Assembly (NCBI RefSeq): GCF_056712565.1
Contig: NZ_CM160072.1
DNA length: 64,000 nucleotides
Reading direction: 5' to 3' (one strand)
This document shows, in pieces, positions 37,577 to 54,459 of this stretch. The position numbers and the translations under genes were made by a program. Within the stretch, counting starts at the first letter, position 1; each line of letters begins with the position of its first letter. The notes under the pieces were generated by a model, which was given only the letters and a program-made list of their open reading frames with translations, was not told the origin of the DNA and searched no databases.

Positions 37577-38518
37577 TTAATTTATTTTTAATGAATGGTA
37601 ATCTCGTGAGTTGACCGAAGATTTGAGATAACTGCAATCATTAACCGACAGTATTGCCGCTAATAGGCGACATACCAGTGCCTGCATTTGCAGCAATATA
37701 TCGTTACCATATTGACTGTTGTTAACACTTGAGAAACCAAGCGGTTGACCAAAAAAAATAGCCTCATGAAAATTATCATTGCGGATGCCAGAAATGTTTT
37801 TTTTACCTGACACCCATGTGGGGATTGATAACCCATAAATTTTGCACATCCACTTTAATCGCTTGTAATGATTTGGCGGTTTTTTATCAGGAGCCTTGTC
37901 ATGCTCAGCCCACGACAAAGCAAAGCACCCATCAAGTGCCATGTAAAGATACTGGAATTTTTCAAAAGAAAGGTATTGTGGGTTTTGAGATAAGAATAGT
38001 GCATGCACCACTGCCGCAATTCTTTTGGGGGAGTGCGCATCCTTATGTTTGCCATTTATATAATTAAGAGCCAGTTCTATGACTTCTTTTTCAGAGCATC
38101 CAACGAGAATAAAGTCGGTTAACTTAGTGGGCTTGATAGTGGTTGCATCTAAAAAACCAGCGTCAGTGGTTGTCAATCTTATTCCCTTGAAAAAAGAAAG
38201 GCACCACACAATAAAGTTGAGAGTTTCTAACGAGGATGTATTTTTTAATTTTAGTGTGTGCGTTTTGGGCATACTGAATACTCGGTGACTATAAGGCATT
38301 GTGGATATGCCACCATTAAGGTTATATACATCTTGGTTTCCAGGGTATATCCAACCTTTCACAACGTTTTTATCATTATTAACACGCTCCACTTTCTCAT
38401 TGAGACCAGGTAAAGTAAGCAAAGAAAATTGTTCAGTCTCAATGTTAACTTCTACTGGATAGTATCCAAACTCCGACATAATCTCATTGGGTTGCTGTTC
38501 GTCAACTTCACCTTGCAT
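37577..38518 (-). CDS. hypothetical 313-aa protein at the cos-proximal old/tin position
   Basis: Long AT-rich ORF; GGAG RBS; 16-bp perfect palindrome CTCGATAATTATCGAG at 38541-38556 upstream; no motif recognised. Confidence 0.7.
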   Translation of the reverse strand: MQGEVDEQQPNEIMSEFGYYPVEVNIETEQFSLLTLPGLNEKVERVNNDKNVVKGWIYPGNQDVYNLNGGISTMPYSHRVFSMPKTHTLKLKNTSSLETLNFIVWCLSFFKGIRLTTTDAGFLDATTIKPTKLTDFILVGCSEKEVIELALNYINGKHKDAHSPKRIAAVVHALFLSQNPQYLSFEKFQYLYMALDGCFALSWAEHDKAPDKKPPNHYKRLKWMCKIYGLSIPTWVSGKKNISGIRNDNFHEAIFFGQPLGFSSVNNSQYGNDILLQMQALVCRLLAAILSVNDCSYLKSSVNSRDYHSLKIN

Positions 38519-38993: not shown

Positions 38994-39998
38994 CTAATTT
39001 ACATGTATGTAGAGTTCACCGTCGCCAGACCAATCGGGACACTCTAAAACAAGCCCAAACTGCTTGAATATTTCATCAATGATTATTGTTATCTCCCGAA
39101 AATCACCAAAACCTGTAATGTGCTGGTCATTAAACTTCCCATAAAGATTCTGAAAAGCAATGCCTAATTCTGATAATTGATATCTTATCTTTGAGTTGGA
39201 TAGTGTAAGGGATAGCTTTGGATCGTATTCTTTAATATTGATGTTTAGAGAATGGACATAACCCATCGCATAAGCATAAGAGTTGATGATTAGCCTGATA
39301 CGTTTTTTTACTTCGAGATACATGTCATTCAGAGAAATATTACCGTACTTATAACCCCAGATGAGTTTTTCAATCTCGTCAGATACTTCATTTACAACAG
39401 TGTCAAGATTCTCTAAAAATAAATCGATAGTTTCTTGAGGGGCAGACCCCGAAGACATGTAATTAGCGAGATATTCAGACCATGCACGCGTGGCTGAGAT
39501 AAGAAGCGCGCTACCATACTCGTTGACTGTAAAGTTTTGGGCTAAGCATGTTAGTAAGTTTTTTTCATGTACGTGCACTAATTCATGGTGAATGCGATGG
39601 ATGACTGCGAGGTATCCTTCTTCTTTCAGTTTTAAGAAGCTACCATCATTGAAAAGCTCAACAAAAAAATCAATCGATAGCACAAGGGTATATTCTTCAC
39701 ATAGCCCATCATTGCCAATTTTTGTTACTAACTGCCCGACGGCTGCGCCCTGTTTACTATTGGTAAATGAACTAGGGGATTTGTGTTGGTAAGAGGATGT
39801 TACCTTTTGAAGAGCTTCACTGAAGTTATAGGAAACAATCACGCATTTTAATTTGGAGATATCAAGATTGAGATTTTTTGTTAAAGCTCGGATAGCTTCT
39901 AGTGTGAAATTACCGATATTATTTGCTTCTTGCTCAGTAGCGAAACCTTCGAGGGTTATTTTAAAATCAGTTTCCAAAATATTAATCTCCGCGCCCAT
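38994..39998 (-). CDS. hypothetical 334-aa protein with HExxH zinc-metallopeptidase-like motif (cargo between cos and portal)
   Basis: AT-rich ORF; motif VIHRIHHELVHVHEKN; own sigma70-like promoter upstream. Confidence 0.7.
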   Translation of the reverse strand: MGAEINILETDFKITLEGFATEQEANNIGNFTLEAIRALTKNLNLDISKLKCVIVSYNFSEALQKVTSSYQHKSPSSFTNSKQGAAVGQLVTKIGNDGLCEEYTLVLSIDFFVELFNDGSFLKLKEEGYLAVIHRIHHELVHVHEKNLLTCLAQNFTVNEYGSALLISATRAWSEYLANYMSSGSAPQETIDLFLENLDTVVNEVSDEIEKLIWGYKYGNISLNDMYLEVKKRIRLIINSYAYAMGYVHSLNINIKEYDPKLSLTLSNSKIRYQLSELGIAFQNLYGKFNDQHITGFGDFREITIIIDEIFKQFGLVLECPDWSGDGELYIHVN

Positions 39999-47956: not shown

Positions 47957-48386
47957 CGCCGTGCCGCAGCTCCGAAATAATCCCGATATGCTGCGCCTTT
48001 TTGCCGACAACGGCCATACCGATTCCCGACTGGCGAGCTCGCTGTCGTTTGAAAAGGTGTACGTGCTTAACGTGGTGGTGACTGACTTCACCGGTGACCT
48101 TGATTTGATATTCGTGCCGGTGCAGGCGTGGCTGCGTGAACATCAGCCGGACATTATGACCACCGACGACGGGCGGGAAAAAGGATTCACCTGGATTATT
48201 GATATCAATAACGACGATTCGCTCGATATCAGTATCAGCCTGAGGCTCACCGAGCGCACACTCGTCAAAGAGGTCGACGGCGCGCTGCACGTCAGCTATG
48301 CCCCTGAGCCGCCACTGCCTGAGCCGGTGACGCGCCCGGTCGAGCTGTACGTTAACGGCGAACTGGTGAGTAAGTGGGATGAGTGA
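47910..48386 (+). CDS. tail completion protein (gpR family)
   Basis: 158 aa; position. Confidence 0.75.
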   Translation: MNSMQKHKSLRKALINAVPQLRNNPDMLRLFADNGHTDSRLASSLSFEKVYVLNVVVTDFTGDLDLIFVPVQAWLREHQPDIMTTDDGREKGFTWIIDINNDDSLDISISLRLTERTLVKEVDGALHVSYAPEPPLPEPVTRPVELYVNGELVSKWDE

Positions 48387-48825
48387 ATTAACCGCGCTGC
48401 AGGAACGCCTTGCCGGTCTGATTGCCAGCCTGTCACCGGCGGCACGTCGGCAAATGGCGGCTGAGATTGCGAAAAAGCTGCGTACCAGTCAGCAACAGCG
48501 TATCAAGCGCCAGCAGGCACCCGACGGCACCCCGTATGCGGCACGAAAGCGCCAGCCGGTGCGGAGCAAGAAAGGTCGGATTAAACGTGAAATGTTCGCC
48601 AAACTGCGCACCAGTCGCTTTATGAAAGCCAAAGGCAGCGACAGTGCGGCGGTGGTGGAGTTTACCGGCAAGGTGCAGCGCATGGCGCGGGTTCATCAGT
48701 ACGGCCTCAAAGACCGGCCAAACCGTAACAGCCGGGATGTGCAGTACGAGGCGCGCCCGTTGCTCGGTTTCAATAGTATAGATATGAGAATTATTGAGCG
48801 GTTAATAATTGGGGCTTTGGATTAA
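48379..48825 (+). CDS. tail completion protein (gpS family); 3' end runs into AT-rich cargo
   Basis: 148 aa; last ~15 codons (NSIDMRIIERLIIGALD) are AT-rich unlike the rest. Confidence 0.75.
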   Translation: MSELTALQERLAGLIASLSPAARRQMAAEIAKKLRTSQQQRIKRQQAPDGTPYAARKRQPVRSKKGRIKREMFAKLRTSRFMKAKGSDSAAVVEFTGKVQRMARVHQYGLKDRPNRNSRDVQYEARPLLGFNSIDMRIIERLIIGALD

Positions 48826-48879: not shown

Positions 48880-49524
48880 TTATAGTTTGAAATCTGCGTA
48901 ATTATCAATAACCTCTAGAACACCGCTGATGTTGTTATCTCTGCGCCAATTCCAATTGCCATGTATCAAATTTGCATTAGAATAAAGATATCTAAGGAAC
49001 TGAGATGGTAAGAGTGGTTTGTTGCATAAAAATTCATCATAACTATTACTCATATACCACACATATCCATTTTTAATGTCAAAACTTAAATTCTCACCTT
49101 CAATTTTCTTAAAGTTAATTTCTTTATTTAGAGCATTTTCAAACTCTTGTGTATAATAAACACAGTGTATATGAGCGTGAGAAATGCACCCTCCTGAACG
49201 ATCTATATTTTCACCTGCTCCGCTTTCAAAGAAAATTAGAGATCTACCAGATTGGTGGATTATAAATTCATTAAGTTCTCGCAGAATCTCCTTGCCATTA
49301 CTCCGGGTATCTCGATCAAGAGCAGCAAAGGAGTTGATATGCCGCTTAGGAATCAGCATCACATGCGAATTATTTAGCGGGCCAATACTAGGTACAATTA
49401 GAAAATCATTTGTTTCTGCAATGATATTTTTCTTGTCATTTACGATTTCATCGTATCCTTTGATAAGGCTAATGCCATTTATTTCATCGCATATTCCACA
49501 GAACGAATTACAAGAATTATTCAC
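48880..49524 (-). CDS. HIT (histidine triad)-motif protein, cargo gene
   Basis: 214 aa; HIT signature SHAHIHCVY and upstream HVMLIPKRHI; N-terminal CxxC (CNSFCGIC); AT-rich. Confidence 0.75.
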   Translation of the reverse strand: MNNSCNSFCGICDEINGISLIKGYDEIVNDKKNIIAETNDFLIVPSIGPLNNSHVMLIPKRHINSFAALDRDTRSNGKEILRELNEFIIHQSGRSLIFFESGAGENIDRSGGCISHAHIHCVYYTQEFENALNKEINFKKIEGENLSFDIKNGYVWYMSNSYDEFLCNKPLLPSQFLRYLYSNANLIHGNWNWRRDNNISGVLEVIDNYADFKL

Positions 49525-50089
49525 GTTTATTGTCTCCTGGTTTTTTAGGGAGCAATTTTTCAGCCCAAGATGCGAGTCGGCTTAGAACTAAGTCTGAAAA
49601 ATATCCTAATATAAAACAAATCGAGAATGCAATTTTGGTCTTACCATGCCCTTTAATGGAGGATACAAACGTATCCGGAGATAATATCGTATAAGAACAA
49701 AAAGCCACTAAAGCAGCTAAGAACGGAATAAAAATCCTCCAGTAGAACTTATGGGATTCCCAAGGGAAATTATACTGATTGTTTTTCCCTCTAGCAGTTA
49801 CTCTATAAAACCATTTTGCATTATACACCCACCCTCCAAAAAAACCACCAAGAATAGAAAACAAAGATATTTTATTATTATATGACAGCTCAAAAACAAA
49901 TTGAAAAAGAAAGGCGAGAATGCAACCTATTACAAAAAGAACTATTAAATAAGCAAATTCGAATTTTATTTGTTCACAATCGTTATTAAAATAAGGCACA
50001 ACCTCATCATCGCCTAAGGTTTTTTTTCTTTCAGTCATTTGCCAAACACCTTCATTTTTTACTGTGAGCCAGGGTAATTGCATATTCAA
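49517..50089 (-). CDS. small membrane protein (~4 TM helices), cargo gene upstream of HIT gene
   Basis: 190 aa; hydrophobic segments AYLIVLFVIGCILAFLFQFVF, ISLFSILGGFFGGWVY, FYWRIFIPFLAALVAFCSY, IAFSICFILGYF; 8-bp overlap with HIT gene; start codon uncertain. Confidence 0.65.
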   Translation of the reverse strand: MNMQLPWLTVKNEGVWQMTERKKTLGDDEVVPYFNNDCEQIKFEFAYLIVLFVIGCILAFLFQFVFELSYNNKISLFSILGGFFGGWVYNAKWFYRVTARGKNNQYNFPWESHKFYWRIFIPFLAALVAFCSYTILSPDTFVSSIKGHGKTKIAFSICFILGYFSDLVLSRLASWAEKLLPKKPGDNKRE

Positions 50090-50214: not shown

Positions 50215-50850
50215 ATGAAAAATCTAAATTCTTTGCAAGAAATCGCACGCGCGATCCGAAATCTCATCCGTACCGGCATCGTTAGCGACGTAGACCTCAA
50301 GGAGGGGCTATGTCGTATCCAGACCGGGGGGATGCAAACCACTTGGCTGAACTGGCTGACCACCCGAGCCGGTCGTTCGCGGACGTGGTGGGCTCCCTCG
50401 GTCGGTGAGCAGGTTCTGCTGCTGGCAATCGGTGGCGAGCTTGATACCGCTTTCGTGCTGCCGGGTATTTTCTCCGACGATAACCCCGCCCCGTCTGCCT
50501 CGGCGGATGCGTGGCATGTGGCTTTCCCTGATGGTGCGGTCATTGAGTACGAGCCCGAAACCGGCGCGCTGACGGTCAGCGGCATAAAAACGGCCGACGT
50601 GACGGCATCGGAGTCCATCACCGCAACCGTACCGCTGGTACTGGTGAAAGCCTCGACCAGTATCACCCTCGACACCCCGGAGGTGATTTGCACCAATAAG
50701 CTAACGACGGCGACGCTTGAGGTGCAGAAAGGCGGCAAGATGAGCGGCAATCTCGAACATACCGGCGGGTCACTGTCGTCTAATGGCAAGGTACTCCACA
50801 CCCATAAACACCCGGGCGACAGCGGCGGGCAAACGGGGGCACCGTTATGA
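50215..50850 (+). CDS. baseplate spike (gpV family)
   Basis: 211 aa; position. Confidence 0.8.
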   Translation: MKNLNSLQEIARAIRNLIRTGIVSDVDLKEGLCRIQTGGMQTTWLNWLTTRAGRSRTWWAPSVGEQVLLLAIGGELDTAFVLPGIFSDDNPAPSASADAWHVAFPDGAVIEYEPETGALTVSGIKTADVTASESITATVPLVLVKASTSITLDTPEVICTNKLTTATLEVQKGGKMSGNLEHTGGSLSSNGKVLHTHKHPGDSGGQTGAPL

Positions 50851-51200: not shown

Positions 51201-52109
51201 ATGGCAACCGTTGACCTGAGTCAGTTACCCGTTCCCGATGTGGTTGAGGAACTGGACTATGAAACCATCCTTGCGGAACGCAAAGCGACGCTGATATCGC
51301 TCTATCCAGAAGACCAGCAGGAGGCCATTGCCCGGACGCTCACACTTGAGTCAGAGCCGGTTGTTAAGCTGCTGCAGGAAAACGCCTACCGTGAAGTTAT
51401 CTGGCGTCAGCGGGTGAACGAAGCCGCGCAGGCGGTGACGCTGGCCTACTCCGCCGGTAACGACCTCGACGTCGTAGCCGGGAACAATAATACCGAACGC
51501 CTGACCATCACCCCGGCGGATGATACCACCATCCCGCCGACACCTGCCGTTATGGAATCTGATACCGACCTGCGACTGCGCACGCAACAGGCGTTTGAGG
51601 GATTGAGCGTGGCGGGTCCGGTCGGTGCATATGAGTATCACGGTCGCAGCGCCGACGGGCGGGTCGCTGACGTTTCGGTCGCCAGCCCGTCGCCAGCCTG
51701 CGTGACGATTACCGTGCTATCGCGTGAGGGTGACGGCACTGCCAGCCCTGAGCTACTGGCGATTGTTGATAAAGCGCTGAACGCCGAAGATGTGCGCCCG
51801 GTGGCTGACCGGGTGACCGTCCAGTCAGCCGAGATTGTACCGTACCAGATTGACGCGACGATCTACGTTTACCCCGGCCCCGAATCTGAACCCATCAGGC
51901 AGGCGTCAGAGCAGAAGCTGCAGAGCTACATCAGCGCGCAGCACCGCCTCGGGCGTGATATCCGTCTGTCAGCCATTTATGCGGCGCTGCATGTTGAGGG
52001 GGTGCAGCGTGTCGAGCTGACATCACCGCAGGCCGACATAGTGCTGAGTAAGTCGCAGGCGTCGAACTGTACCGAGTACCAGATAACTATCGGGGGCTCG
52101 GATGAATGA
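51201..52109 (+). CDS. baseplate protein (gpJ family)
   Basis: 302 aa. Confidence 0.8.
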   Translation: MATVDLSQLPVPDVVEELDYETILAERKATLISLYPEDQQEAIARTLTLESEPVVKLLQENAYREVIWRQRVNEAAQAVTLAYSAGNDLDVVAGNNNTERLTITPADDTTIPPTPAVMESDTDLRLRTQQAFEGLSVAGPVGAYEYHGRSADGRVADVSVASPSPACVTITVLSREGDGTASPELLAIVDKALNAEDVRPVADRVTVQSAEIVPYQIDATIYVYPGPESEPIRQASEQKLQSYISAQHRLGRDIRLSAIYAALHVEGVQRVELTSPQADIVLSKSQASNCTEYQITIGGSDE

Positions 52110-52710
52110 CCGGCTATTACCCGTTGGCTCGTCGCCGCTGGAGGTCGCCGCCGCCGCTGCGTTCTCTGAGATTCAGCGCGTGCCGGTACCGCTGCGCACC
52201 CTGTGGAACTGGCGCACCTGCCCGGTAAAGCTGCTGCCGTATCTGGCGTGGGCGCTGTCGGTCGACAGGTGGGATGAGAAATGGCCGGAGGCGACAAAGC
52301 GCAGCGTCTGCGCGTCCTCGTTTTTCGTCCATCAGCACAAAGGCACCATCAGCGCATTGCGTCGGGTCGTCGAGCCGCTCGGCTTTCTGATTGAGGTGCG
52401 CGAGTGGTGGCAACTCGACGAGGAGCCAGGCACATTCCGCCTCGTTGTTGGCGTCCTCGACAGCGGCATCACTGACGAAATGTATCAGGAGCTTGAGCGC
52501 CTGATTGAAGACGCCAAACCGGCAAGTCGCCACCTGACGGGGCTGGCTATCAGCCTGAGTGCAACCGGCGAGCTGTATGTCGGCGCGGGATGCTACGCCG
52601 GCGACGCGCTGACCGTTTACCCCTACACCCCCGAGGAAATTGTCGTCGGCGGTGAATATTACCCGGCCTCGGCCATCCATTTGATTGATAACCTGAGAGT
52701 GAACGCATGA
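52102..52710 (+). CDS. baseplate protein (gpI family)
   Basis: 202 aa; overlapping start. Confidence 0.75.
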   Translation: MNDRLLPVGSSPLEVAAAAAFSEIQRVPVPLRTLWNWRTCPVKLLPYLAWALSVDRWDEKWPEATKRSVCASSFFVHQHKGTISALRRVVEPLGFLIEVREWWQLDEEPGTFRLVVGVLDSGITDEMYQELERLIEDAKPASRHLTGLAISLSATGELYVGAGCYAGDALTVYPYTPEEIVVGGEYYPASAIHLIDNLRVNA

Positions 52711-53732
52711 CCGCAAAATATTTTGCCATTCTGACCAATCAGGGCGCGGCGCGGCTGGCGAACGCGGCGACACTCGGTACCAAGCTCAACCTGACGCAGA
52801 TGGCGGTCGGTGATGCGAATGGTACGCTGCCGACCCCTGACCCGACGCAGACGAAGCTCATTAACCAGAAGCGCATCGCGCCGCTGAACCTGCTGACCGT
52901 TGACCCGGCCAATACCAGCCAGATTATCGCGGAACAGATTATTCCCGAGAATGAGGGCGGTTTCTGGATCCGTGAGATTGGTCTCTATGATGATGCCGGT
53001 GTGCTTATTGCCGTGGCGAACTGCCCGGAAACCTACAAACCACAACTGCAGGAGGGAAGCGGCCGCACGCAGACCATTCGCATGATTCTGATTGTGTCGA
53101 GCACGTCGGCTATTACTCTGAAAATCGACCCGTCGGTCGTGCTGGCAACGCGCCAGTATGTCGACGATAAGGTTATTGAGGTGAAAGCCTATGCCGATAA
53201 TCTGCTGGCCGCACACCTCGCCGCCGCGAATCCTCATCCGCAGTACCTGCAAGTCGCCGACATAGCGAAATATACGCCAGTAGGTGTGCCACTTCCTTTC
53301 CCGTCAGCAACGCCGCCGACAGGCTGGCTGAAATGCAACGGCGCGGCATTTGATAAGGCGAAATATCCGGGGCTGGCTGCAGTTTTTCCGTCTGGTTATT
53401 TGCCTGATTTACGCGGTGAGTTTATTCGCTGCTGGGATGATGGGCGCGGTATTGATTCAGGCCGCATGTTACTGAGCGCGCAGACGGGAATGCTGGAAAG
53501 GCACCGACACTTCATCGTCGCGAATACTGCATATGAGGAAACCGATGAATGGGATATTGGTGTCATTTATCGTTCTACATACGTGCAGGGACGCGGGCTT
53601 GATGCATCTTCGACTGGAGGTAGCTTGATTCCTACCCCGACCCTTCACTCTAAAGGTCGTGTAGGTAATACCGGCGGAGCTGAAACACGACCGCGTAACA
53701 TCGCATTTAATTACATCGTGAGGGCGGCATAA
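52707..53732 (+). CDS. tail fibre protein (gpH-like, short, with C-terminal tail-collar-like domain)
   Basis: 341 aa; conserved N-terminus MTAKYFAILTNQGAARLANA; C-terminal GWLKCNGAAFDKAKYPGLAAVFP...LPDLRGEF. Confidence 0.8.
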   Translation: MTAKYFAILTNQGAARLANAATLGTKLNLTQMAVGDANGTLPTPDPTQTKLINQKRIAPLNLLTVDPANTSQIIAEQIIPENEGGFWIREIGLYDDAGVLIAVANCPETYKPQLQEGSGRTQTIRMILIVSSTSAITLKIDPSVVLATRQYVDDKVIEVKAYADNLLAAHLAAANPHPQYLQVADIAKYTPVGVPLPFPSATPPTGWLKCNGAAFDKAKYPGLAAVFPSGYLPDLRGEFIRCWDDGRGIDSGRMLLSAQTGMLERHRHFIVANTAYEETDEWDIGVIYRSTYVQGRGLDASSTGGSLIPTPTLHSKGRVGNTGGAETRPRNIAFNYIVRAA

Positions 53733-54328
53733 TGGCGAAAGCAACATTGAATAAAATCGGTATTGCCACAAAAGCCGGTGATATGACTGTTTATAACTAC
53801 GACGGGGAAACGCGCGAGTTTCTGTCGACTTCCACCGAGTTTCTAGCGGTGGGCGTGGGGATTCCAGCCAACTCGTGTACTGATGCGCCGGTCGATGAGA
53901 AAGAAGGTTTTGCCATTTGCCGCACGGCCAGCCTTGATGGGTGGGATTATGTTGTCGACCACCGGGGCGAGACCGTGTATGACACCGAAACCGGTCAGCC
54001 TGTCGAGATTACCGGGCTTGGTGATTATCCTGATAATGTGACCACCATCGAACCGATGACGCCTTACGACCGCTGGAACGGTAGCGAATGGATTATGGAT
54101 GCGGATGCACAGAAAGGCGGTCAGGTTGCGACAGCAGAACAGAATAAAGCCTCATTGCTGGCCGAAGCGCAAAGCACAATCAGCCTGTGGCAGACTGAGC
54201 TGCAGCTCGACATCATCAGCGACGATGACAAAGCCAACCTGATTGCATGGATGAAATACATTCAGGCACTGAACGCGGTCGACACCTCAACAGCACCGGA
54301 TATCGAGTGGCCGGTAAAACCGGAATAA
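53732..54328 (+). CDS. tail fibre assembly chaperone (gpG/Tfa family)
   Basis: 198 aa; C-terminal Tfa-like region (YDRWNGSEWIMDADAQKGGQVA...). Confidence 0.75.
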   Translation: MAKATLNKIGIATKAGDMTVYNYDGETREFLSTSTEFLAVGVGIPANSCTDAPVDEKEGFAICRTASLDGWDYVVDHRGETVYDTETGQPVEITGLGDYPDNVTTIEPMTPYDRWNGSEWIMDADAQKGGQVATAEQNKASLLAEAQSTISLWQTELQLDIISDDDKANLIAWMKYIQALNAVDTSTAPDIEWPVKPE

Positions 54329-54459
54329 CGCAAGGCGGGCTGATGCCCGTCTTTTTTATGATTTGTTTATGTGCCATCCCCTACCCATCGCCGATAAATA
54401 GCCCCTCAACAGACCAGCCAGGACAATAACACTTGCCCACTAACCACGGAGTTAACCGG

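What the first reader, a model, noticed from the sequence alone, without database searches (positions are those of the whole stretch)
52707..54328. Short tail-fibre gene with tail-collar-type C-terminus
The H-like fibre is 341 aa, about half the size of P2 H as I recall it. It keeps the conserved N-terminal baseplate-attachment region but carries a different C-terminal receptor-binding module with a collar-like domain, followed by a matching Tfa chaperone. This suggests host-range module exchange.
Basis: partly seen in the sequence, partly recalled or inferred. Interest (0 to 1): 0.25.

Follow-up and report, generated by a model that had tools for sequence, protein, structure and literature searches.

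The report
Short collar-tipped prophage tail fibre, chaperone
These two genes are the ordinary, already-annotated tail fibre and fibre-assembly chaperone of a complete 186/P2-type prophage in E. coli; the fibre is short because a small T4-gp37-like "collar" tip is joined almost directly to the baseplate-binding domain, with clear signs of module swapping.

Summary
ORF 52707..53732 encodes a 341-aa fibre and ORF 53732..54328 a 198-aa Tfa chaperone. They sit in the order V-W-J-I-H-G of a complete ~31-kb 186-like prophage lying between yfiB and rplS.

- **Domains:** The fibre has the P2-H-type N-terminal domain (PF12571, aa 1-150) and a Collar domain (PF07484).
- **Size:** P2 H is 669 aa and 186 K is 462 aa. 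Only aa 1-158 align to them.
- **Tip:** The C-terminus resembles the split collar (D10) of the T4 gp37 tip. It is a conserved scaffold (aa 186-262 and 322-341) around a hypervariable ~60-aa insert carrying one HxH motif.
- **Chaperone:** The Tfa N-domain is homologous to T4 gp38, the gp37 chaperone. It lies directly downstream of collar-type fibre ends in 37 of 41 phage records present in both hit lists.
- **Mosaicism:** Nucleotide identity to relatives is 92-99% up to about 53216, collapses, then recovers near 54292. dS rises from 0.07-0.24 to 1.0-1.6 across the left junction while dN/dS stays low.

So module exchange is supported. However, 324-362-aa fibres are normal for this lineage (infectious phages EtG and Midge), the collar module has more than 12,000 cluster representatives, and identical genes are already annotated in RefSeq. 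Ordinary; low interest.

The parts
52707..53732 (+). Tail-fibre gene (P2 H / 186 K equivalent), 341 aa plus stop
   Evidence: ORF. PF12571 plus PF07484. 100% identical to RefSeq 'phage tail protein' WP_001622316.1.
52707..53201 (+). Fibre aa 1-165: conserved N-terminal (baseplate-attachment type) domain
   Evidence: PF12571 at aa 1-150, E 8.6e-62. 53-56% identical to P2 H and 186 K over aa 1-158. 92-99% nt identity to EtG, Midge and E. coli prophages. dN/dS 0.08.
53202..53261 (+). Fibre aa 166-185: short helical linker. Contains the left recombination junction (about 53216) and the site where longer homologues carry shaft insertions.
   Evidence: There is one mismatch in 53050-53215 and dense mismatches from 53216 against E. 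coli 401651. The 362-, 435- and 509-aa homologues differ by insertions here. The weak AF2 model predicts a helix.
53262..53492 (+). Fibre aa 186-262: collar scaffold, first half (T4 gp37 D10-like)
   Evidence: PF07484. Aligns to 2XGF chain residues 23-121. Highly conserved in 67 diverse relatives. AF2 pLDDT is 88-97 over roughly aa 186-235 only, falling to 51-59 by aa 236-262.
53493..53669 (+). Fibre aa 263-321: hypervariable insert, equivalent in position to the gp37 D11 needle/tip; the putative receptor-binding tip
   Evidence: No conserved column across relatives. 10-22% identity in homologues whose scaffold is 83-90% identical. Lowest nt identity to relatives. Unrelated sequence in EtG.
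53502..53510 (+). Codons for H266-R-H268, an HxH motif
   Evidence: Aligns with the HSH of T4 gp37 in 2XGF. HxH is present at this position in 83 of 145 family representatives. Iron-binding histidines of gp37 are described in PMC6957217.
53670..53729 (+). Fibre aa 322-341: collar scaffold, second half (ETRPRNIAFNYIVRAA)
   Evidence: Aligns to 2XGF chain residues 219-242. Nearly invariant in relatives. In 139 of 145 representatives it is the extreme C-terminus.
53732..54328 (+). Tail-fibre assembly protein gene (Tfa; P2 G equivalent), 198 aa plus stop
   Evidence: ORF. PF02413 E 1.2e-38. phrog_105 'tail fiber assembly' E 2.3e-89. RefSeq WP_001029791.1.
53732..54121 (+). Tfa aa 1-130: fibre-specific N-domain (T4 gp38 / HK97 Tfa type)
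   Evidence: 33% identical to the T4 gp38 N-terminus, E 2e-14. No similarity to P2 G or Midge Tfa here. Adjacent to collar-type fibre ends in 37 of 41 records.
54122..54325 (+). Tfa aa 131-198: conserved C-terminal helical domain, with the right recombination junction near 54292
   Evidence: Matches Mu U 5YVQ_B (E 2e-7), P2 G (32%) and Midge Tfa (45%). Mismatches to Midge become sparse after 54292.
54332..54353 (+). Intrinsic terminator-like hairpin plus T-run, ending the V-W-J-I-H-G operon
   Evidence: Nine-pair stem with 6 GC pairs followed by TTTTTAT. Same position as 186 t45 and the P2 V-operon terminator.
52102..52710 (+). Upstream gene I (baseplate protein), translationally coupled to the fibre gene
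   Evidence: PF09684 Tail_P2_I E 4.6e-51. ATGA overlap with the fibre start.

Best explanation
The two genes encode the receptor-binding tail fibre and its assembly chaperone in a complete 186-like (Peduoviridae, Eganvirus-like) prophage of E. coli.

Shown by the data:
- The fibre has four parts. First, a P2-H-type N-terminal domain (aa 1-165). Second, a ~20-aa linker with essentially no shaft. Third, a collar scaffold of the T4 gp37 D10 / gp12 type, split into aa 186-262 and aa 322-341. Fourth, a ~60-aa hypervariable insert between the two scaffold halves, carrying one HxH motif.
- The Tfa has a gp38/HK97-Tfa-type N-domain and the conserved C-terminal domain shared with Mu U and P2 G.
- The segment from about 53216 to about 54292 (fibre C-terminal half plus nearly all of Tfa) has a different evolutionary history from the flanking tail genes.
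- The insert assorts independently of the scaffold.

Inferred, not shown:
- The fibre is a homotrimer docked on the baseplate by its N-terminal domain.
- The Tfa N-domain binds the collar tip and nucleates trimer folding from the C-terminal end, with the Tfa C-domain trimerising.
- The six histidines of the three HxH motifs hold one metal ion on the three-fold axis.
- The insert forms the distal surface that contacts the cell-surface receptor and so sets host range.

The receptor itself is unknown.
For: - Gene order and annotation.
- Complete prophage, from integrase to ogr.
- Domain hits.
- Match to the gp37 tip with both halves of the split collar, and HxH aligned. The domain boundaries D10 = 811-881 plus 1010-1026, with D11 as an insertion, come from PMC6957217.
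- Fold: the collar core (about aa 186-235 and 332-341) is predicted at pLDDT 88-97. The top Foldseek hits are gp37 2XGF (E 5.4e-8) and gp12 (5iv5_AI, 1OCY).
- Family survey: 12,012 representatives at E<=1e-3, a conserved scaffold, no conserved column in the insert, and a median insert span of 67 aa against 71 aa here.
- Tfa: 5YVQ match, gp38 homology, and adjacency in 37 of 41 records, including siphoviruses HK97 and HK106 and many P2-like myoviruses. The modular Tfa model (variable N-domain binds the fibre, conserved C-domain trimerises) is from PMC9608196.
- Mosaicism.
- Functionality of this architecture: EtG has a 327-aa fibre (73% identical) and a Tfa 81% identical, and infects 8 of 30 E. 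tracheiphila isolates (PMC5824000).
Against: - No experiment bears on this exact protein.
- The full-length monomer model was unusable (pLDDT 43.6). In the C-terminal model the insert was below pLDDT 50. Foldseek TM-scores were low (0.36). The tip geometry, the trimer and the metal site are therefore not modelled.
- The fibre carries Cys at position 242, where 142 of 145 family representatives have Gly. This could impair folding.
- Tfa proteins of Mu and Ur-lambda stay on the virion (PMC9608196), so the chaperone may also take part in binding.
Confidence: 0.85

Rival explanations
1. The fibre is a decayed, shaft-deleted remnant in a defective prophage and no longer works.
For: It is half the length of P2 H. 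It carries the rare G242C change in the otherwise near-invariant IRGWDDGRG motif, where 142 of 145 representatives have G.
Against: The same length class (330-362 aa) recurs in many clusters from Escherichia, Enterobacter, Citrobacter and Lelliottia. Phages recovered as free particles have it too: EtG at 327 aa and Midge at 324 aa. dN/dS is 0.08-0.25. The ORFs are intact and translationally coupled. The prophage has a full gene set.
Confidence: 0.06
2. The collar tip is mainly a docking platform. The Tfa stays bound to the mature fibre and supplies, or shares, receptor recognition, as gp38 adhesins do in T2/S16-type phages and as retained Tfa may do in Mu.
For: Tfa proteins of Mu and Ur-lambda are present in virions (PMC9608196). 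The Tfa N-domain is itself part of the exchanged cassette.
Against: The most variable element is the fibre insert, not the Tfa. EtG (Erwinia host) and this E. coli prophage have Tfa proteins 81% identical along their whole length, but unrelated inserts. Homologues with 83-90% identical scaffolds carry unrelated inserts. The homologous T4 gp38 is a chaperone absent from virions (PMC9608196; T4 annotation).
Confidence: 0.12
3. The locus is a switchable (Gin/Cin-type invertible) host-range region with alternative fibre ends.
For: Some homologues are named 'alternative C-terminus' or 'variable tail fiber'. Many relatives carry the LGLGEGSALP junction typical of such fibres. 186 K has an annotated Mu-like crossover site.
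Against: Only 131 nt, holding a terminator, separate the Tfa stop from the sheath gene. There is no second inverted fibre end or Tfa ORF. Only weak inverted repeats of 71-82% are found. A gix-like sequence recalled from memory has no match. The junction here reads YLQVADIAKYTPVG, not LGLGEGSALP.
Confidence: 0.01

Closest known systems
Erwinia phage EtG (Eganvirus EtG), fibre EtG_21 (327 aa) and Tfa EtG_22 (197 aa)
   Same: Same operon and same architecture. The fibre is 73% identical and the Tfa 81% identical. Flanking tail genes are 92-99% identical at nt level. EtG is an infectious phage (PMC5824000).
   Different: The insert (aa 263-321 here) is unrelated and lacks HxH. EtG has a two-gene insertion between Tfa and the sheath gene that is absent here.
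P2 gpH (669 aa) / gpG, and 186 K (462 aa) / Tfa
   Same: Same position in the V-W-J-I-H-G operon. The N-terminal ~158 aa are 53-56% identical. The Tfa C-terminal 68 aa are 32% identical to P2 G.
   Different: Nothing aligns beyond aa 158. P2 and 186 have long shafts and a different tip. The Tfa N-domain is unrelated.
T4 gp37 receptor-binding tip (PDB 2XGF; domains D10 collar and D11 needle) with chaperone gp38
   Same: Split collar scaffold with an insertion, and an aligned HxH (PMC6957217). Top structural match. The Tfa N-domain is homologous to gp38.
   Different: The gp37 insertion D11 is 128 aa, with iron-binding histidines (PMC6957217); here it is about 60 aa with one HxH. gp37 is the 1026-aa distal half of a four-protein long fibre, whereas here the collar sits almost directly on the baseplate-binding domain.
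HK97 / HK106 (lambda-like siphovirus) side tail fibre Stf C-terminus plus Tfa
   Same: The same cassette: fibre end 47-52% identical over about 150 aa, followed directly by a Tfa whose N-domain is 64% identical.
   Different: The N-terminal part of the fibre and the virion context differ entirely (non-contractile tail, side fibres).
435-aa 'phage tail-collar fiber domain-containing protein' of E. coli P2-like prophages
   Same: Same N-terminal domain (86-87% identical) and the same HRH-type insert (56-63% identical). It makes up 87 of the top 120 clusters.
   Different: It carries a ~95-aa shaft insertion and the LGLGEGSALP junction between the N-terminal domain and the collar.
T4 gp12 short tail fibre receptor-binding domain (1OCY, 5iv5)
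   Same: Collar-type fold. It is the second and third structural match, and its C-terminal ETRPxNI..NYI motif aligns.
   Different: Sequence similarity is very weak (E 0.51). gp12 needs gp57A, not a Tfa (statement from my own knowledge, not tested here).

Membership tests
P2 gpH-type tail fibre (Peduoviridae) | N-terminal PF12571 domain | tested here: met
   E 8.6e-62, 208 bits against a cut-off of 23, full profile 1-150. 53-56% identity to P2 H and 186 K.
P2 gpH-type tail fibre (Peduoviridae) | Position after V, W, J, I and before the Tfa, sheath and tube genes in a P2-like late operon | tested here: met
   ORF map and Pfam hit for gene I. RefSeq annotation of the identical locus. Collinear with P2, 186, EtG and Midge.
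P2 gpH-type tail fibre (Peduoviridae) | Trimeric fibre attached to the baseplate that mediates adsorption | not testable with these tools
   Needs particles, EM or adsorption assays.
Phage tail collar domain (PF07484; T4 gp37 D10 / gp12 collar) | Pfam match above the gathering score | tested here: met
   48.7 bits against a cut-off of 24, aa 193-240.
Phage tail collar domain (PF07484; T4 gp37 D10 / gp12 collar) | Split topology: two scaffold segments flanking an inserted tip domain, ending at the protein's C-terminus | tested here: met
   aa 184-285 and aa 318-341 align to 2XGF chain residues 23-121 and 219-242. D10/D11 definition is from PMC6957217. In 139 of 145 relatives the scaffold ends at the C-terminus.
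Phage tail collar domain (PF07484; T4 gp37 D10 / gp12 collar) | Collar fold | tested here: inconclusive
   The collar core is at pLDDT 88-97, but the insert is below 50. Foldseek ranks 2XGF, 5iv5_AI and 1OCY first (E 5e-8 to 1e-4), but TM is only 0.34-0.36.
Phage tail collar domain (PF07484; T4 gp37 D10 / gp12 collar) | Axial metal ion held by HxH motifs of three chains | not testable with these tools
   The motif H266-x-H268 is present and aligned. Metal binding needs a structure or ICP-MS.
Tail fibre assembly protein (Tfa; PF02413 Caudo_TAP) | Pfam match, and the conserved C-terminal domain shared with Mu U and P2 G | tested here: met
   132.6 bits against a cut-off of 22.1. 5YVQ_B E 2e-7 over aa 131-198. 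P2 G 32% identical.
Tail fibre assembly protein (Tfa; PF02413 Caudo_TAP) | Encoded immediately downstream of its cognate fibre, with an N-domain that co-varies with the fibre tip type | tested here: met
   One-nt overlap with the fibre stop. 37 of 41 shared records are adjacent. Midge has a different tip and a different Tfa N-domain. Homology to gp38.
Tail fibre assembly protein (Tfa; PF02413 Caudo_TAP) | Required for fibre trimerisation | not testable with these tools
   Needs co-expression experiments.
Invertible host-range switch (Mu Gin / P1 Cin type) | Invertase gene, crossover sites and a second inverted fibre end with its Tfa | tested here: not met
   No room and no ORFs for these. No strong inverted repeats. 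No gix-like site, though that pattern came from memory.

The most novel reading that the evidence does not exclude
The ~60-aa insert inside a conserved collar scaffold is the sole host-range determinant. It is swapped independently of both the scaffold and the Tfa, so one chaperone type serves many tips. On that reading this shaft-less 341-aa fibre would be a natural minimal 'plug-in' receptor-binding platform for retargeting P2-like phages or tailocins. A side possibility is that the lineage-specific G242C change in the near-invariant IRGWDDGRG motif alters the fibre's assembly or stability.
Probability: 0.35. Interest if true: 0.3.

Novelty: already known. Interest (0 to 1): 0.1.

Why it matters
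It matters little for discovery. The genes are correctly annotated in RefSeq, the domain families are curated, and horizontal exchange of fibre tips with their chaperones among P2-, lambda-, Mu- and T4-type phages is classical knowledge.

The modest value is descriptive. The locus shows three nested levels of modularity:
- the N-terminal domain;
- a shaft of variable length, which is absent here;
- a collar scaffold with an independently exchangeable ~60-aa insert, served by a conserved gp38-type chaperone.

This could guide fibre engineering. Chimeric P2 gpH(N-terminal)–S16 gp37(C-terminal) fibres have already been designed in the laboratory (PMC9594776).

Tried and rejected
- **Full-length AF2 monomer model:** using a 22-sequence alignment gave pLDDT 43.6, unusable, and it was not searched.
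- **C-terminal AF2 model:** using 67 diverse relatives gave a confident collar core (about aa 186-235 and 332-341) but not the insert. I used it only for family-level fold matching.
- **Invertible-switch idea:** rejected.
- **Truncation or pseudogene idea:** rejected on the length class, the selection signal and the infectious relatives.
- **PDB sequence search:** found no solved homologue for the N-terminal domain.
- **PADLOC scans of neighbouring cargo genes:** found nothing.
- **Co-occurrence count caveat:** the count uses only the top 60 rows of each search, so records that appear in only one list are uninformative.
Full report
**Observation.** The first start codon overlaps the stop of the upstream gene (ATGA). 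The second overlaps the stop of the first (TAATG). This is typical translational coupling. A hairpin plus T-run at 54332-54353 follows the second gene.

**Genomic context.** The segment is 100% identical to chromosomes of E. coli SF-468, MS15052 (a CSF isolate), APEC O2:K1:H7 E18055 and 10035004-3. There the genes are annotated 'phage tail protein' and 'tail fiber assembly protein'.
- The genes lie in the order S, [cargo], V, W, J, I, fibre, Tfa, sheath, tube, E/E', tape measure, U, D, ogr.
- The prophage is about 31 kb and also has integrase, CI, CII, Fil, replication endonuclease, portal, terminase, capsid and lysis genes.
- It sits between yfiB and rplS.
- Flanking tail genes are 92-99% identical at nt level to Eganvirus EtG and phage Midge. 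So this is a 186-like member of the P2 family.

**Domains and size.**
- Pfam places PF12571 at fibre aa 1-150 (E 8.6e-62) and the Collar domain PF07484 at aa 193-240 (E 7.3e-13).
- The second protein is a Caudo_TAP Tfa (E 1.2e-38). PHROGs agrees.
- Only aa 1-158 align to P2 H and 186 K (56% and 53% identity). Nothing downstream does.
- The fibre is not unusually short for its own lineage. EtG has 327 aa and Midge 324 aa. The protein database holds many homologues of 330-362 aa from several enterobacterial genera, plus 435-aa and 509-aa versions.
- Alignment shows that these length classes differ by insertions between the motif HPQYLQ and the collar. The window's protein is therefore the shaft-less form.

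**Anatomy of the C-terminal module.**
- A sequence search of the PDB matches the T4 gp37 receptor-binding tip (2XGF, E 2.3e-18) in two pieces. Fibre aa 184-285 align to chain residues 23-121, and aa 318-341 align to residues 219-242.
- In gp37 the collar domain D10 is made of residues 811-881 and 1010-1026. The needle/tip domain D11 (882-1009) is an insertion into it (PMC6957217). The fibre here has the same split topology but an insert of only about 60 aa.
- H266 and H268 align with an HSH of gp37. Iron-binding histidines in the gp37 needle are essential (PMC6957217).
- An exhaustive HMMER search with the C-terminal 183 aa found 12,012 cluster representatives at E<=1e-3 and 207 at E<=1e-30.
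- In an alignment of 67 of them the scaffold is strongly conserved: PVGxPxPWPxATPPxGWLKCNGA...LPDLRGEFIRGWDDGRG...ETRPRNIAFNYIVRAA. The insert has no conserved column.
- Among the best 150 representatives, 145 aligned over both scaffold halves. Of those 145, the span between the residues aligned to L256 and R328 is 47-170 aa, with a median of 67 against 71 here. HxH is present in 83, and the scaffold ends at the protein's C-terminus in 139. The compact form seen here is therefore the norm, and the long gp37 needle is the exception.

**Structure prediction.**
- The full-length monomer model failed (pLDDT 43.6).
- The C-terminal fragment modelled with the diverse alignment gave pLDDT 88-97 for the collar core (about aa 186-235 and 332-341). 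It gave below 50 for most of the insert.
- Foldseek then ranked gp37 2XGF first (E 5.4e-8) and T4 gp12 next (5iv5_AI, 1OCY), with low TM-scores.
- I treat the fold as supported at family level only.

**The chaperone matches the tip.**
- The Tfa C-terminal 68 aa resemble Mu U (5YVQ_B, E 2e-7), P2 G (32% identity) and Midge Tfa (45% identity). The N-terminal ~130 aa do not.
- The N-domain is instead homologous to the N-terminus of T4 gp38, the chaperone of the gp37 tip (33% identity, E 2e-14).
- I ran tblastn of the collar module and of the Tfa N-domain against 50,697 phage records. Of 41 records present in both top-60 lists, 37 have the Tfa N-domain on the same strand within 32 nt downstream of the fibre end. 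These include siphoviruses HK97 and HK106, P2-like phages of Escherichia, Yersinia, Klebsiella and Salmonella, and EtG.
- This fits the published modular model in which a variable Tfa N-domain binds the fibre and a conserved helical C-domain trimerises (PMC9608196).

**Module exchange.**
- Identity in 100-nt windows to four relatives is 92-99% from V through the first ~500 nt of the fibre gene. It falls abruptly at about 53215, is lowest at 53515-53615 (the insert), and recovers at the end of the Tfa gene.
- Against E. coli 401651 there is one mismatch in 53050-53215 and dense mismatches from 53216 (codon ~170). Against Midge the mismatches become sparse after 54292 (Tfa codon ~187).
- Synonymous divergence jumps from 0.07-0.24 in the N-terminal domain to 1.0-1.6 in the first collar segment. 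dN/dS stays at 0.08-0.25 in all alignable parts. That pattern indicates different histories under purifying selection, not decay.
- Midge shares the N-terminal 185 aa (91% identity) but has an unrelated tip and an unrelated Tfa N-domain.
- At a finer scale, homologues with 96-98% identical N-terminal domains and 83-90% identical scaffolds carry inserts only 10-22% identical. Others with 70-75% identical N-terminal domains carry inserts 75-85% identical. The insert is therefore an exchangeable unit of its own.
- EtG and this prophage have Tfa proteins 81% identical but unrelated inserts. This suggests that the chaperone recognises the scaffold rather than the insert.

**Mechanism.**
- Shown: the domain homologies, gene order, mosaic boundaries, selection signal and co-occurrence.
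- Inferred: a homotrimeric fibre docked on the baseplate through aa 1-165. Folding nucleated at the collar tip by the Tfa. One metal ion held by the three HxH motifs. The insert serving as the receptor-contacting surface.
- The receptor is unknown.
- The architecture works in nature, because EtG is infectious on 8 of 30 host isolates (PMC5824000).

**Rivals.**
- A decayed fibre is unlikely (about 0.06). The only hint is Cys242, at a position where 142 of 145 relatives have Gly.
- A role for retained Tfa in binding cannot be excluded (about 0.12).
- An invertible switch is excluded.

**Verdict.** What is there is an ordinary, already-annotated fibre and chaperone pair from very large, well-described families. 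Interest is low.

Noticed in passing
window 48880-50089 (minus strand): A low-GC (0.34) two-gene insertion sits between tail genes S (48379..48825) and V (50215..50850). It encodes a 214-aa HIT-family protein (weak HIT/DcpS_C/CwfJ_C_1 hits; phrog_23000) and an overlapping 190-aa protein of unknown function with no Pfam hit (phrog_22917). This is the position of orf30 in P2. Related prophages carry different cargo there (a pentapeptide-repeat protein, a 287-aa hypothetical protein), while 186 and Midge carry no gene there and EtG only a 135-nt hypothetical ORF. PADLOC finds nothing. It is possibly a moron or an undescribed defence cargo.
   Followed up: partly
window 37577-38518 and 38994-39998 (minus strand): Two low-GC (0.38-0.44) ORFs of 313 and 334 aa lie next to the portal gene. 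This is the cos-adjacent hotspot where P2-like phages carry anti-phage systems (PMC9122126). Neither has a Pfam or PADLOC match.
   Followed up: partly
window 53430-53432 (fibre codon 242): The fibre has Cys in the motif IRCWDDGRG, where 142 of 145 family representatives have Gly. The change is shared by the near-identical clusters P0001 and P0008 but not by the 91%-identical homologue P0002. Its effect is unknown.
   Followed up: partly
L002 7620-8380 (Erwinia phage EtG): EtG carries a two-gene minus-strand insertion (a hypothetical protein and a putative membrane protein) between the Tfa and sheath genes. This is the position of Z/fun in P2. The window has only a terminator and promoter region there.
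   Followed up: no
window 50215-50314: The first ~100 nt of gene V are only 63-65% identical to all four relatives, while the rest of V is 85-100% identical. This suggests that the recombination which delivered the upstream cargo reached into the start of V.
   Followed up: no
protein P0008 (380 aa, from the protein database): One database protein is 100% identical to this fibre from about aa 66 onward. Its N-terminus is unrelated, with a precomputed PF06892 hit. It is probably an assembly or gene-calling chimera.
   Followed up: no
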